Source: an uncultured Armatimonadetes bacterium (GTDB lineage Bacteria; Armatimonadota; Hebobacteria; Hebobacterales; Hebobacteraceae). Taken from it: a stretch of DNA of 64,000 nt. The stretch lies in assembly GCA_963716175.1 (NCBI GenBank), contig OY970296.1, positions 2,752,001 through 2,816,000 of the forward strand, read 5' to 3'. Below the pieces are notes generated by a model, which had not been told where the DNA came from, made no database searches, and saw only the letters and a program-made list of their open reading frames with translations. Made by a program: the position numbers and the translations under genes. This document shows positions 34,914 through 38,467 of this stretch, piece after piece. Numbering within the stretch: the stretch's first letter is position 1; each line of letters starts with the position of its first letter.

Positions 34914-35953
34914 TCATCTCGCCCCGCTCAGGTCCCAGGTGAAGCGACGGCCCTCGTCGCTCTGCTGAACCGAGAACTGCTTGACGGTGCTGCCGGACGG
35001 GATCAGGAAGTAGTACCGCGCCTTCGCTTCCTGCCCCGGTTCCACGTCCATGCTCACTGTCTCATCCCGGCTCGCGTACAGCAACTCCTGGTTCCAGTCC
35101 AGGTTCTCGCCCTCCGTGGTCCGCACTTTCGGTGCAAGGGCACTCCACCCCAGCGACTGCGTGTCCTTTGTCGGGTTCCGAAGAGTCATGTTGAGGACCA
35201 GGTAGCGCGCGCCCCCTCCGGGGCTTCTTCCTTGATGGCCCCGGTGGTATAGCTCGTAGAGTCGAGTCGCGCGTCCCACATCCCGACCGGGCAATACGTG
35301 CCTACCACCGCGGGCACATCCGCCAGCGCGGTCGCTCCACTCTTGTCCGCCGGGTCGCCGAATGGCGCCGCGAGCCCCTTCACCTTCTTGCGCAGATCAT
35401 AGCGGATCACCAGCTGGTCCTGTGCCTTCACGATCAGCTTGGGCACTTCGCCCCGCGCTGGAACGGTGATGATCGTGTAGGCGTCGAGCTTCTGCGCTGG
35501 CTTCAGGTCGAGGCTGAGCGCTTCCTGGGTCGACTCCACCCCGATGTTCTGCGGGTACTCGCGGTTTGTGTCAGTTGCGTCCACAGCGGTGAAGGAGCAT
35601 ACACTCCATCCGACCCCGCGCTCACTCGGCTGCGGGTTCTGTAAGGTGAAGTGCACTACCAGCAGCTTCTCCTCCGCCGTCGGCACGTAGTAGTCGGCCC
35701 CAATCCGCTTGCGCTCCGCTAGGTACTCGCAGCTCTTGAGAGTGAAGTTGATCGGGCTCTCTTTGCCCAGCGTGTAGGTCAGACCCAACTCCCCCTGGTC
35801 GCCCTTGAGTTGACTCGTCCCCTGCACGACCCGCTTCTGCGGCGCGGGCGGCTTCTTCTTCGCAGCCCCCGCCGCCACGCCGCCCATCACCGCCGCCAGC
35901 GTCGCCAGGCCCAGCACCAACGCCGCCGTCGTCCTCGCTATTTTCCCTACCAT
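34914..35953 (-). pseudogene. Secreted protein with two DUF4352-like Ig domains; frameshift near 35215
   Basis: Signal peptide; repeated VVHFTLQNP/VLNMTLRNP..LKPAQ/VEPGQ pattern. Confidence 0.6.
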
Positions 35954-35975
35954 CTCAGCCTCCTATAATGCTGCA

Positions 35976-36170
35976 ACTTGGATATCCGTACTGGTTTCAC
36001 CAGTATGGAGTGGGTTATAGTCTCCGGGCCGGGGCGTCGGGCGCGAGGTCTTCATTTCAGTTACGGCGCGACCGAGAAGAGGAGAATGACCCCTCGGCAA
36101 CCGGTCCGGAGCTTGGATTGCAACCTGCGGCACGACCGCGCAATTCAGGAGTCGAAGCGGGACCGGAGGC
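35976..36170 (+). ncRNA. Predicted IS110 bridge RNA
   Basis: 5' hairpin 35985-36009 plus two internal loops (36044-36096, 36101-36166), each with an apical CGG-C(G/A)CGA-CCG hairpin and a 3' AGGAG complementary to the core. Confidence 0.75.
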
Positions 36171-36220
36171 GACGAGGAGCTCCCGCGCTGGCGGCAGATC
36201 CATTGCCGAGGAGGTGGTGT

Positions 36221-37648
36221 ATGGCGGAAGCGAGGTTGTTGTGCGTGGGCATCGATGTCTCGTCGCGCTCCCTGGAGGTCGGCTTCTGCGATGGCAGCGG
36301 AGCGCCCATCGGCGGCGTGCAGTCCTTCCCCAACGACGCAACCGGCGCGGCCGCGCTCGGCGAGGCCGTGATGGTGATCGCACGCGCGTGCGGTCGCGGC
36401 ACCCAGGTGATGGCGGCGGTGGAGTCCACCGGCGAATATCATCGGGTGGCGGCGAAGGCGCTGCGGGCAGAGACGCGTCGGACGATCCAGGTGCACGTGC
36501 TCAATCCCCGCGAGGTCAAGTGGTTCCGCAAGCTGGAGCTCAAGGACACCAAGACCGACCGGGTGGATGCCGAGCTGATCGCCCGATTCCTGGCGAAGAT
36601 CCGCCCCCAGCCCCGCGCCCCCATGCCCGAGGGATTCGAAGCGCTCCAGGATGCCACTCGCACCCGGCGCCGCTGCGTGGAGGATCGCACCTCGCTCAAG
36701 AATCGGCTCCACCGGCTGCTGCGCACTCACTTCCCCGGCTATCGGGAAACGCTGGGTGCCAAGTTCAGCGTCCGCACCCTGGTGGCGCTGGCCGCCTGCC
36801 CCTCGCCCCAGGAGCTGCTCCGGCGGGGTGAGGCTCGCCTGAGTGAGTTGCGCAACTCCGACGGCAAGCGTGTCGGAGCCGCCTTCGCCCGGAAACTGAT
36901 CGCCCTGGCGAAAGCTGCCCCCGCGCGCCAACTGCCGATGATGGCGCGTCTCTCCATCCAGGACGCGGCCGTCCGCATCCTGCAACTGAATCGTTTCCTT
37001 CACGGCATGGACGCAGCCGTCGCCCAGGAGCTGGAGCGGCTCTTCCCAGATACGGTTCTGGCTTCGGTGCCGGGCCTGGGCCCGGTCTCGGTGGCTTCCA
37101 TCCTGGCCGAGACAGCCGACATCCGTCGCTTCCCGCACAAAGAGACTTTCGTGGGCTACTGTGGGCTCTATCCCATTGCCTGGGAGAGCGGAGACACCAA
37201 GCTGCGCTTCCGCATGACCCGCAAGGGCAACCGCATGCTGAAGATGACTCTGCTGGTGGCCTCGGCCGCCGCCCGCCAATACAACCCGGCGATCCGCCAC
37301 TTCTACGCCCGCCTGCGAGCCCGAGGCAAATCCAAGAAAGCAGCCGGAGGTGCCATCGCCCGAAAGATGGCTGAGATCGTCTGGGCCGTGCTCACCTTCA
37401 ATCAACCTTGGTCGGAAGAGATCGCCCTGCGCGGAATCGCTCGGGGAGAAGAGATGGCCCAGACACCGAAGGGGGAGCGACGCCTCACTGGAGATGCCGC
37501 GGGTCAAGCCCCGATGCAATCGGGACGACCACTCAAGGCGGCGTCGAGGTCTCGCGCTCCCCAGCGTAATTCTACCATCAGCGCTGGGAAAAACAAGCCG
37601 CCACATCTCCAACTTACTCGCTATGCCAGAGGCACGATTACCCCTTGA
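36221..37648 (+). CDS. IS110 DEDD recombinase/transposase
   Basis: VGIDVS, ESTG, KTDRVDA, SVPGLG, WESG, KGNRMLK; GAGGAGG RBS. Confidence 0.95.
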   Translation: MAEARLLCVGIDVSSRSLEVGFCDGSGAPIGGVQSFPNDATGAAALGEAVMVIARACGRGTQVMAAVESTGEYHRVAAKALRAETRRTIQVHVLNPREVKWFRKLELKDTKTDRVDAELIARFLAKIRPQPRAPMPEGFEALQDATRTRRRCVEDRTSLKNRLHRLLRTHFPGYRETLGAKFSVRTLVALAACPSPQELLRRGEARLSELRNSDGKRVGAAFARKLIALAKAAPARQLPMMARLSIQDAAVRILQLNRFLHGMDAAVAQELERLFPDTVLASVPGLGPVSVASILAETADIRRFPHKETFVGYCGLYPIAWESGDTKLRFRMTRKGNRMLKMTLLVASAAARQYNPAIRHFYARLRARGKSKKAAGGAIARKMAEIVWAVLTFNQPWSEEIALRGIARGEEMAQTPKGERRLTGDAAGQAPMQSGRPLKAASRSRAPQRNSTISAGKNKPPHLQLTRYARGTITP

Positions 37649-37889
37649 CATCAGTTATTGCATCTCCTCACCCGCCGCGTGCTCCTGGGCACTCCCGTTG
37701 CCCAGCCGTAAGTCGCCCGAAGCGCAGGCACAACCCCGGCCGCGATCTGCTTCCCACTACCGCGGCTGGGGGGCAATCACCTCCCCGCTCGGAGTTGCCA
37801 CGCGTCATCTCCGTGTAACAAGCTATCTGCATCGGGCGACGGTGCGATCGCCGTCGTAATCCGATATCGGCACGTCTGGAGCGATTCCG

Positions 37890-38054
37890 GCCGGTTCCAC
37901 GAGCCCCTGACAGCGGCAGGTGGACCCAGTCTACTCCCCGCTCAGCATCGCCTTCCGTCCTCGGTGGCCTCCCGCCTTAGGGGTGTCAGCGAGTGCAGAG
38001 AATACCGCGACTGCGGCTCACGAGCATCCTGGAAGCCAGATGGATTTCTGGACA
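37890..38054. repeat. Dispersed ~250-bp repeat R, 3' part
   Basis: Aligns with 40961-41203 and 42221-42475; ends GATGGATTTCTGGACA. Confidence 0.7.
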
Positions 38055-38467
38055 GCGCGGGTTGAGCGCCACGTCTTCCCGGACGTCCGCATCACCGCGT
38101 ACCGCTTGGTCACCTGAGAGCTTGGCCCCTTTCCGGCTGGGGCCGGCCGTCGCACGCCTCGACGCGGGAGGGCGTCTCTGTGCCACAACTCGAGTAGCCC
38201 TGCCCGTCGCGCCGCGAGCGCCGTTCGGACTGCGTCGAAGGGAGCGCCATCAAGCCATCAGGAATCTGCCCTCTTCCTGGCCCACCAGGTGTCCCAAGCT
38301 CATGTGACAACCGCATGGTGTTCGCTCTGACCTGCAGCTAGCTCTGGTAGCAGGGGCCCGCTTTGTGGTATGGCCCTCCCGGCGAGGGCAGCAGGGACCG
38401 AGCGCGAGGAGATGGGCAGAGCCGGCGGGTCTGGCGCCAGCGATGCCGGATGCGAGGAGGGCAGGGA

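What the first reader, a model, noticed from the sequence alone, without database searches (positions are those of the whole stretch)
35963..37651. Antisense ORF spans the IS110 end to end and could relay host translation
Seen: a 562-codon minus-strand ORF starts at ATG 37651, about 12 nt after the GAGGAG at the right junction. It stays open through the bridge-RNA region. Its TAG (35965-35963) overlaps the regenerated AGGAGG of the host gene. Known: IS900 inserts near host RBSs and has an antisense hed ORF. Inference: ribosomes cross the insert and reinitiate, reducing polarity, so SD targeting is tolerated. Caveat: same-register shadow ORFs are common at high GC.
Basis: partly seen in the sequence, partly recalled or inferred. 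Interest (0 to 1): 0.75.

Follow-up and report, generated by a model that had tools for sequence, protein, structure and literature searches.

The report
Conserved product-less antisense ORF across IS110
A mobile element that inserts into ribosome-binding sites carries a full-length reverse-strand reading frame that evolution keeps open even in AT-rich relatives, although its protein is not conserved, which suggests it lets ribosomes cross the insert so the displaced host gene still works.

Summary
A 562-codon minus-strand ORF (35963..37651) spans a 1.7-kb IS110-family element. It starts 12 nt after GAGGAG at the right junction. Its TAG overlaps the regenerated AGGAGG, 9 nt before the host ATG.

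It is not a GC shadow ORF. In 26 of 41 distinct clade members with a complete transposase gene (36-100% identity), the same-register antisense frame has no stop in 11,684 codons, against about 123 expected after calibration. This includes elements with GC3 of 0.33-0.52.

The frame also stays open and in register through both untranslated regions, whose lengths differ by multiples of three.

The antisense product is not conserved. Its identity falls to 14-17%, its pI ranges from 4.8 to 10.8, and synonymous sites of the transposase vary freely.

All 4 genomic copies, and 20 of 21 scorable insertions of zero-stop elements (three are this genome's copies), sit on a Shine-Dalgarno sequence 10-15 nt before a host ATG. 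A sister clade aimed at a different target has 6-7 antisense stops.

Best reading: selection for translation itself, a hed-like ribosome conduit that limits polarity. Translation and reinitiation remain inferred; no RNA data were available.

The parts
35186..35953 (-). Host gene (255 aa, signal-peptide-like N-terminus, no Pfam or NCBIfam hit) whose SD was the insertion target
   Evidence: Gene-like GC3 of 0.83.
35959..35964 (-). Regenerated host Shine-Dalgarno AGGAGG. Bases 35961-35964 (TCCT on +) are the left copy of the core.
   Evidence: Read. All four copies share TCCT next to the left end.
35963..35965 (-). Antisense ORF stop TAG: T from the first IS base plus AG of the core/SD
   Evidence: The triplet (CTA on +) at the left-end junction is the actual terminator in 15 of 22 zero-stop homologs with a recognisable left end.
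35965..37664 (+). IS110-family element (1700 bp), bounded by TCCT at 35961-35964 and 37665-37668
   Evidence: Four near-identical copies in the genome with different flanks.
35964..35969 (+). TATAAT: the -10 half of the promoter that would form on circularisation
   Evidence: Read. With TTGACA at 37645-37650 the circle junction gives TTGACA, 17 nt, TATAAT. The principle is stated in PMC11208160.
35965..36220 (+). 5' untranslated region encoding a conserved structured RNA (bridge-RNA-like)
   Evidence: RNAalifold on 23 homologs: 41 predicted pairs, 19 with compensatory changes. No Rfam hit.
36221..37648 (+). IS110 RNA-guided transposase CDS (475 aa plus TGA)
35963..37651 (-). Antisense ORF, 562 codons, same register as the transposase
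   Evidence: Conserved openness shown.
37645..37650 (+). TTGACA: the -35 half of the junction promoter. Its complement plus T37651 forms the antisense ATG.
   Evidence: Read. An in-frame ATG or TTG at this place in 17 of 19 homologs.
37655..37663 (-). Mini-ORF ATG CAA TAA in the frame of the long ORF. Its TAA (37657-37655) is the upstream boundary of the open frame.
   Evidence: Read. The right-end sequence TTATTGCATCTCC is conserved across the clade.
37664..37669 (-). GAGGAG at the right junction (core TCCT 37665-37668 plus flanks): the host-derived SD in front of the antisense ORF

Best explanation
The element is an IS900-like member of the IS110 (bridge-RNA) family, and its guide is aimed at strong Shine-Dalgarno sequences (consensus R-A-GGAG-G on the host strand). 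It integrates in one orientation, antisense to the host gene, and puts 1.7 kb between that gene's promoter and its SD and start codon. The core is present on both sides, so an SD remains at each junction. At the right junction the SD is followed by ATG CAA TAA and then, 12 nt after GGAG, by an in-frame ATG that overlaps the -35 hexamer. From there one reading frame runs without a stop through the transposase 3' region, the transposase gene (read backwards) and the bridge-RNA region. It ends in a TAG made of the first IS base plus the core, 9 nt before the host ATG here. Proposed mechanism: host read-through transcripts are translated along this frame. The translating ribosomes keep the long leader from Rho-type premature termination, melt the structured antisense bridge-RNA region, and terminate on the host SD. 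The host gene is then still transcribed and translated, by coupling or by fresh initiation on the exposed SD. Insertions into SDs would then cost the host little and persist. Shown here: the anatomy, SD targeting, conservation of openness and frame, and non-conservation of the product. Inferred: antisense transcription, use of this ATG, relief of polarity, reinitiation. My confidence that openness is under selection is about 0.9. My confidence in the anti-polarity relay as the reason is about 0.5-0.55.
For: (1) Stop depletion. 26 of 41 distinct ingroup elements with a complete CDS have 0 TTA/CTA/TCA codons in 11,684 codons. The raw expectation is 224, from A-usage at other 4-fold sites of the same gene. 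That model runs at observed/expected 0.54 on 2,988 gene-like ORFs of this genome and 0.57 on 22 IS110 elements with stops, so about 123 are expected.
(2) Low-GC members. L067 (GC3 0.33), L064 (0.35), L062 (0.42), L066 (0.49) and L068 (0.52) have 0 stops. Flanking ORFs of L064 use these codons at 37 of 580, which predicts 27.6. L066 predicts 14.0 and L068 12.6. The ORF listing independently reports antisense ORFs of 562, 562 and 544 aa. The other antisense frames carry 7-52 stops.
(3) Frame kept through non-coding parts. The frame is open across 5'UTRs and 3'UTRs. In 18 of 22 zero-stop elements with a left-end motif, the distance from left end to start codon is a multiple of 3, although lengths differ (246, 252, 255, 258, 261, 273, 285). 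3' distances of 9-369 nt are also in frame. The sense frame is closed in the 5'UTR of most homologs.
(4) Product unconstrained. Sense identity of 91, 77, 54 and 45% corresponds to antisense identity of 78, 57, 34 and 14-17%. The ratio of 4-fold-site divergence to amino-acid divergence is 1.6-3.2 in open pairs and 0.7-2.2 in broken pairs. 3'UTR differences are even over antisense codon positions: 25/28/30, 27/31/26, 39/39/37. pI runs from 4.8 to 10.8 and composition follows GC.
(5) Ends. A start codon lies within 6 nt of the right-end in-frame stop in 17 of 19 (15 ATG, 2 TTG). The terminator is TAG at the left-end junction in 13 of 19, and otherwise lies roughly 12-50 nt inside the left end.
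(6) Targeting. 4 of 4 copies here and 20 of 21 scorable zero-stop insertions (three are this genome's copies) have an ATG 10-15 nt after the A of AGGAG on the host strand.
(7) Natural loss. The sister clade (65-68% identity) has 6-7 stops and frame-breaking UTR lengths in 3 of 5 loci. It has a different left-flank motif with no nearby start codon in 5 of 5 loci.
(8) Copy L002 sits in an operon junction. Before insertion the upstream ORF ended in a TGA 1 nt before the downstream ATG. After insertion it ends in a TGA that overlaps the antisense ATG, as cTGATG.
Against: There is no expression evidence of any kind. No RNA run was listed and no proteomic or Ribo-seq data were available. The SD-to-ATG spacing of 12 nt is long for efficient initiation (recalled knowledge, not tested). 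A conserved in-frame TAA sits between the junction SD and the ATG. The consensus scan found no sigma-70-like promoter upstream on the minus strand, although the scan is crude. Both ends of the ORF coincide with the promoter hexamers, which are conserved for other reasons, so the stop/SD overlap may partly be a by-product. In 6 of 19 elements the ORF stops before the left end rather than on the SD. The open state is one shared ancestral trait. The support comes from its maintenance along long branches, not from repeated origins. The link between loss of the ORF and loss of SD targeting rests on about two independent events (the sister clade and L070). An IS-centred benefit of antisense translation predicts most of the same patterns.
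Confidence: 0.52

Rival explanations
1. IS-centred antisense translation. The ORF is kept open so that host read-through transcription, protected by ribosomes, crosses the whole element. This silences the promoter-less transposase and bridge RNA in the integrated state, by transcriptional interference or antisense pairing, or it stabilises the antisense RNA. Host gene expression is only a by-product.
For: It makes the same predictions for openness, frame maintenance and an unconstrained product. The integrated copy lacks its own promoter, because the -35 and -10 halves are at opposite ends. The ORF decays in the clade that is no longer placed behind a host SD. That would also follow if initiation depends on the host.
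Against: It does not explain why the frame must stay open through the last roughly 250 nt (bridge-RNA region) up to within about 0-50 nt of the left end in every zero-stop element. It also does not explain why the usual terminator lies on the host SD. No regulatory data exist.
Confidence: 0.22
2. A real hed-type protein. The antisense ORF encodes a product expressed from host signals (the 1997 proposal for IS900), and its function tolerates almost any sequence, for example a disordered or composition-dependent protein.
For: Precedent in name: the hed ORF of IS900 spans that element and depends on host signals (PMC8141618, passages). A start codon is conserved in 17 of 19.
Against: No Pfam or NCBIfam match. 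Identity falls to 14-17% while the transposase stays at 44-45%. There is no synonymous constraint and no codon-position bias in the UTR-encoded parts. pI ranges from 4.8 to 10.8 and composition shifts from G/A/R/L-rich to S/F/I/K-rich.
Confidence: 0.12
3. Chance shadow ORF. A high-GC gene with few TTA, CTA or TCA codons leaves its same-register antisense frame open for no functional reason.
For: 13 of 312 comparable ORFs in this 66%-GC genome are equally open. The sister clade and several single elements have stops. The ORF ends coincide with the only AT-rich patches of the element.
Against: There are zero stops in elements with GC3 of 0.33-0.52, where 12-28 are expected. Frame and openness are kept through UTRs of differing length. 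About 123 calibrated stops are expected in 26 elements and 0 are seen.
Confidence: 0.03

Closest known systems
IS900 and its hed ORF (Mycobacterium avium subsp. paratuberculosis; Doran et al. 1997, known to me only through citations and passages in PMC8141618 and PMC2942039)
   Same: An IS110-family element, with an ORF on the strand opposite the transposase that spans the whole element and depends on host expression signals. It inserts in intergenic sites next to the RBS and start codon. The published target motif, CATGNNNNNNTCTCCTT, is of the same class as CAT-N(5-10)-CTCCT found here.
   Different: Per PMC8141618, IS900 hed has no RBS or start codon of its own. Here an in-frame ATG lies inside the element. 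IS900 was studied in one high-GC genus, where a shadow ORF could not be excluded. Here openness holds across a clade that includes AT-rich members, and the product is shown to be unconstrained. Sequence relatedness to the IS900 transposase could not be tested, because no IS900 sequence was reachable with the tools.
IS621 / IS110 bridge-RNA recombinases (PMC11208160; solved chains 8wt6 and 9t56)
   Same: DEDD plus Tnp domains. A long non-coding left end encodes a structured RNA. A promoter is reconstituted across right end, core and left end. A short core sits at both junctions.
   Different: Only 23-30% identity to other IS110 groups sampled. The main text of PMC11208160 has none of the words antisense, ribosome or IS900. 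Distant IS110 elements sampled here carry 2-34 antisense stops, apart from L024 with 0.
Translational coupling at operon junctions, and engineered non-polar insertion cassettes (recalled textbook knowledge; no call)
   Same: An upstream ORF ends on or next to the SD of the next gene a few nucleotides before its start codon. Non-polar cassettes carry their own start and end with an SD, so that the downstream gene stays expressed.
   Different: Here the 'cassette' is a natural transposon, and the translated spacer is a roughly 560-codon frame with no conserved product that lies antisense to the element's own gene.
Shadow ORFs antisense to GC-rich genes
   Same: Same register as the sense gene. 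Stops are possible only at TTA, CTA or TCA.
   Different: Openness persists at GC3 of 0.33 and through non-coding flanks.

Membership tests
IS110 family (RNA-guided transposase elements) | Transposase with an N-terminal DEDD domain (PF01548) and a C-terminal Transposase_20 domain (PF02371) | tested here: met
   101 and 72.9 bits, both over the cut-offs. NF033542 at 225 bits (cut-off 140); matches the IS621 and ISCro4 chains.
IS110 family (RNA-guided transposase elements) | No terminal inverted repeats; the same short core at both junctions; multiple copies with different flanks | tested here: met
   four copies. TCCT flanks both ends in three of them; in copy L003 the right junction reads TCCC. 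Inverted repeats were not searched for specifically.
IS110 family (RNA-guided transposase elements) | Promoter reconstituted across the right end, core and left end of the circle | tested here: met
   At sequence level only: TTGACA (37645-37650), 17 nt, TATAAT (35964-35969) once the ends are joined. No circle junction was seen in the DNA contigs laid.
IS110 family (RNA-guided transposase elements) | Structured bridge RNA encoded in the non-coding left end | tested here: inconclusive
   A conserved structure with 19 of 41 covarying pairs supports a structured RNA. No Rfam family matched. Guide-to-target pairing was only examined by eye.
IS900-type hed arrangement | ORF on the complementary strand spanning the element | tested here: met
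   563 codons open between stops in three copies.
IS900-type hed arrangement | Orientation-specific insertion at the RBS and start codon of a host gene | tested here: met
   4 of 4 copies. 20 of 21 scorable zero-stop insertions, three of them this genome's copies.
IS900-type hed arrangement | The ORF lacks its own RBS and start codon | tested here: not met
   The RBS is at the junction and partly host-derived, but an in-frame ATG lies inside the element (37651). An ATG or TTG is at that place in 17 of 19.
IS900-type hed arrangement | Transposase closely related to that of IS900, IS901 or IS902 | not testable with these tools
   No IS900 sequence was reachable.
Translationally coupled gene pair | Upstream stop within a few nt of the downstream SD and start | tested here: met
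   TAG overlaps AGGAGG, 9 nt before the host ATG. TAG is the terminator in 13 of 19 homologs.
Translationally coupled gene pair | Downstream translation depends on upstream translation | not testable with these tools
   Needs reporters or Ribo-seq.
GC shadow ORF | Openness explained by codon usage or GC3 alone, and lost in AT-rich relatives | tested here: not met

The most novel reading that the evidence does not exclude
A whole clade of RNA-guided IS110 elements uses the near-universal Shine-Dalgarno sequence as its landing site and pays for this with a built-in 'non-polar cassette'. This is a roughly 560-codon antisense reading frame with no conserved product, kept open over deep divergence and a GC3 range of 0.33-0.95. 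Its only function is to carry ribosomes from the host SD at one junction to the regenerated SD at the other. That would make it an ORF selected for translation itself across an entire mobile element, and it would explain the unexplained hed ORF of IS900.
Probability: 0.5. Interest if true: 0.9.

Novelty: new variant of a known kind. Interest (0 to 1): 0.8.

Why it matters
The hed ORF of IS900 has been in print since 1997, and PMC8141618 still calls its function unknown. In a GC-rich genus it could always be dismissed as a shadow ORF. The comparative data here show that the equivalent frame is under strong selection to stay open in a broad environmental clade, while its product is not.

This turns "what does Hed do?" into a directly testable idea: does translation across the insert keep the host gene alive? 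If so, it is a natural solution to insertional polarity. It would explain how an element can afford to target ribosome-binding sites. It would also be an unusual case of an ORF conserved for the act of translation. In addition, it bears on the design of bridge-recombinase insertions that should not disturb neighbouring genes.

Tried and rejected
Rfam search of 35500-38400 at E up to 1: no family.

First genome-contig scan with the single transposase: only 23-30% identical Treponema and Fibrobacteraceae IS110 elements. These were used only as low-GC outgroup controls.

Plasmid collection: only 26-29% relatives, such as ISBth13. Not followed.

Family and phylum searches of 401 and 15 genomes: close relatives in only two other genomes.

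Sequencing runs: no RNA holder listed. The four DNA runs laid gave only short contigs, with no empty site and no circle junction; the loose ends match another genomic copy.

Promoter and terminator consensus scan: 0 promoter-like sites, and two weak minus-strand terminator-like sites, one of them inside the IS (37299-37287). Uninformative.

Doran et al. 1997 is not held, so IS900 statements rest on passages of PMC8141618 and PMC2942039. The supplementary figures of PMC8141618 that show hed and the target motif were not seen; supplements are closed.

Literature searches for a wider description found nothing relevant: 'IS900' + 'hed', 'IS110' + 'complementary strand' + 'open reading frame', 'bridge RNA' + 'IS110' + 'Shine-Dalgarno', 'host expression dependent', and IS110/antisense/polarity. 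This covers only the held library.

Considered and rejected:
- An N-terminally extended transposase starting at TTG 35978. The sense frame is closed in the 5'UTR of most homologs.
- In-frame fusion with host ORFs. Stops bound the frame at both ends.
- General avoidance of NTA or NCA codons. A is used at 24-31% of other 4-fold sites in three of the five low-GC members (L064, L067, L068) and at 14-15% in L062 and L066.

Rows dropped before counts. Loci with a CDS truncated by a contig end or a partial match were left out. Among them, L045 has 0 stops in 356 codons, L023 has 7, L031 7, L076 8, L078 10, L077 3 and L079 1; L033/L034 are the frameshifted copy; the rest are most of the Treponema loci. 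L030 and L032 were dropped as duplicates of L021. L044 (one sense stop) was left out of the tree.
Full report
OBSERVATION. The minus-strand ORF is real: 35963..37651, 562 aa, ATG start. Read:
- its ATG (37651-37649) lies 12 nt after GAGGAG (minus strand, 37669-37664);
- its TAG (35965-35963) overlaps AGGAGG (35964-35959);
- the ATG of a 255-aa host ORF follows at 35953.

The plus strand encodes an IS110 transposase: PF01548 and PF02371, NF033542 at 225 bits, with local similarity to the solved IS621 and ISCro4 transposases. Its probable start is ATG 36221, behind GGAGG. The two ORFs share one codon register, so antisense stops can arise only from sense TTA, CTA or TCA codons. The transposase has none in 475 codons.

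THE ELEMENT. The genome (4.56 Mb, one contig, 66% GC) has four copies that differ by 0-3 bases. One copy has a 2-nt deletion that frameshifts both the transposase and the antisense ORF.
- The flanks define a 1700-bp element, 35965-37664. TCCT lies on both sides in three copies; in copy L003 the right junction reads TCCC.
- Joining the ends gives TTGACA, 17 nt, TATAAT. This is the circle-junction promoter described for IS110 elements (PMC11208160, passages).
- The 256-nt leader is a conserved structured RNA. In 23 homologs, 19 of 41 predicted pairs show compensatory changes. No Rfam model matched.
- The antisense ATG is the complement of the base after the -35 hexamer plus its last two bases. 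The antisense TAG is the complement of the first two -10 bases plus one core base. An in-frame TAA, part of a mini-ORF ATG CAA TAA, lies just upstream of the ATG.

TARGET. In all four copies the left flank carries CAT (a host ATG on the other strand) a few bases from the core. The host ORFs are gene-like. Reconstructed targets of 17 elements give R-A-GGAG-G on the host strand (the four window-genome rows in that output are offset by one base through a slicing slip of mine). Copy L002 lies in an operon junction. Before insertion the upstream ORF stopped 1 nt before the downstream ATG. After insertion it stops at a TGA that overlaps the antisense ATG.

IS IT CHANCE? Within this genome, 13 of 312 GC3-matched gene-like ORFs of 400-560 aa have an equally open antisense register, and P(0) from synonymous usage is 0.044. 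The 85-codon leader stays open in 9.5% of shuffles. That is suggestive only, so I collected relatives:
- two other genomes of the family;
- 48 metagenome loci found with an alignment of 46 homologs;
- distant IS110 elements as controls.

COMPARATIVE RESULT. For loci with a complete CDS (51 rows; truncated rows are listed under Tried and rejected), 26 of 41 distinct ingroup elements (36-100% identity) have no TTA, CTA or TCA codon. That is 0 in 11,684 codons.
- An internal model uses A-usage at the other 4-fold and 2-fold sites of the same gene and expects 224.
- The model overshoots by a known factor: observed/expected is 0.54 on 2,988 gene-like ORFs of this genome and 0.57 on 22 IS110 elements that do have stops. 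About 123 stops are therefore expected.
- The decisive cases are AT-rich: GC3 of 0.33, 0.35, 0.42, 0.49 and 0.52 with 0 stops.
- In L064 the flanking ORFs use these codons at 37 of 580, which predicts 27.6 in the transposase. TTA is 0 of 39 Leu codons there, against 16 of 39 in the flanks.
- The ORF listing confirms antisense ORFs of 562, 544 and 562 aa in L064, L068 and L066. Locus GC for these is 35-45%.
- The other two antisense frames hold 7-52 stops.

FRAME THROUGH NON-CODING PARTS. The open frame continues through the 5'UTR and through 3'UTRs of 9-369 nt, giving open spans of 538-625 codons wherever both bounding stops were found.
- In 18 of 22 zero-stop elements with a recognisable left end, the distance from left end to start codon is a multiple of three, across seven different lengths. 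The four exceptions stop roughly 16-50 nt inside the left end, or run off the contig.
- The sense frame is not open in the leader of most homologs. Its openness in this element is incidental.

PRODUCT NOT CONSERVED.
- Antisense identity is 78, 57, 34 and 14-17% where sense identity is 91, 77, 54 and 45%.
- Four-fold sites diverge as fast in open pairs as in broken pairs, relative to amino-acid change.
- UTR-encoded parts show no codon-position bias.
- pI spans 4.8-10.8 and composition follows GC.
- No Pfam or NCBIfam match.
Selection therefore acts on openness and frame, not on the peptide.

ENDS AND CONTEXT IN RELATIVES.
- A start codon lies within 6 nt of the right-end in-frame stop in 17 of 19 elements (15 ATG, 2 TTG). 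The terminator is TAG in 13 of 19.
- 20 of 21 scorable zero-stop insertions, three of them this genome's own copies, have an ATG 10-15 nt after the A of AGGAG. L058 is the exception.
- On a quick ML tree (47 rows; 40 ingroup rows, SH-aLRT 99), the open state is widespread and the broken state is scattered, with a minimum of 7 changes.
- The sister clade of this element (7 rows) has 6 stops in each member.
- In that sister clade, UTR lengths break the frame in 3 of 5 loci.
- In that sister clade, the left flanks share a different motif, and none of the 5 loci with a left end has a nearby start codon.
- This fits loss of the ORF once the element no longer lands in front of a gene. It is essentially one event, plus L070.

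MECHANISM. The data require triplet-periodic selection against stops on the antisense strand, which I can explain only by translation. The product is free to vary, and the frame must reach the left end, where the host SD sits. This would protect the transcript from premature termination and expose or couple the host start.

An IS-centred role (silencing of the integrated transposase) and a sequence-tolerant Hed-like protein remain possible. A plain shadow ORF does not. Nothing here shows transcription, initiation at this ATG, or reinitiation. The 12-nt spacing and the TAA in between are weak points.

RELATION TO WHAT IS KNOWN. PMC8141618 (passages) describes IS900 hed as an ORF of unknown function that spans IS900 on the complementary strand and has no RBS or start codon. 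It gives the target motif CATGNNNNNNTCTCCTT. PMC2942039 (passages) cites IS900 and IS901 as inserting between SD and start codon. The present element is the same kind of arrangement. I could not test sequence relatedness to IS900.

In the held library I found no report that such a frame is conserved outside GC-rich mycobacteria, that its product is unconstrained, or that it might serve against polarity (searches; the word check of PMC11208160).

VERDICT. The shadow-ORF caveat is rejected by comparative evidence. The relay interpretation is favoured but unproven. Novelty: a new variant of a known kind. Interest: 0.8.

Noticed in passing
G000:C1 about 782977-784690 (L004; also L033/L034): The fourth copy of the element is 1698 bp. 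A 2-nt deletion splits the transposase (residues 1-236 and 232-475) and cuts the antisense open frame to 344 codons.
   Followed up: partly
G000:C1 about 815733-817453 (L002/L032): This copy sits in an operon junction between a 193-aa ORF and a 434-aa ORF. The insertion replaced the last codons of the upstream ORF, which now ends at a TGA overlapping the antisense ATG (cTGATG).
   Followed up: partly
window 37655-37663 (minus strand): A conserved mini-ORF, ATG CAA TAA, directly abuts the junction GGAG and is in frame with the long antisense ORF. It is part of the right-end sequence TTATTGCATCTCC conserved across the clade. Its role (donor recognition only, or also ribosome loading) is unexplained.
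   Followed up: partly
window 37440-37648: The transposase here is 475 aa, whereas many 50-56% identical homologs are 416-417 aa followed by 200-370 nt of 3'UTR. The C-terminal tail of about 60 residues may be a read-on into former UTR, which would be possible because that region is kept stop-poor.
   Followed up: no
window 36072-36090; alignment A4 columns about 155-170: The bridge-RNA-like leader has an invariant AAGGAG/GAGGAG in an apparently unpaired stretch. It is complementary to the CTCCT target and core strand, so it is a likely target or donor guide that resembles an SD itself.
   Followed up: no
L041, L042, L043, L044, L046 (left flanks): The sister clade (65-68% identity) shares a left-flank motif of the form GGTGGGC..GTA.CG directly before CTCC. 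This suggests a reprogrammed target that is not next to a start codon.
   Followed up: partly
G000:C1 45070-46215, 2848895-2850052, 124857-125333, 2891220-2891651 (L035, L036, L091, L092): The same genome holds other IS110-family transposases, about 30% identical for the two compared. L035 and L036 each have 3 antisense-register stops. They serve as in-genome controls with the same codon usage.
   Followed up: partly
L024 and L025 (distant IS110 elements, 26-27% identity): L024 (GC3 0.59) has 0 antisense-register stops in 394 codons. L025 has a 638-codon antisense open frame. Other IS110 clades may carry similar frames.
   Followed up: no
window 36099 and 36340: A/G differences between the window copy and two other genomic copies also appear in contigs of the DNA runs laid.
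   Followed up: no
window 34914-35294 and 35186-35953 (minus strand): The host ORF and the next ORF downstream overlap by about 109 nt and encode similar-looking beta-rich sequences with no family match. This may be a tandem pair or a frameshifted gene.
   Followed up: no
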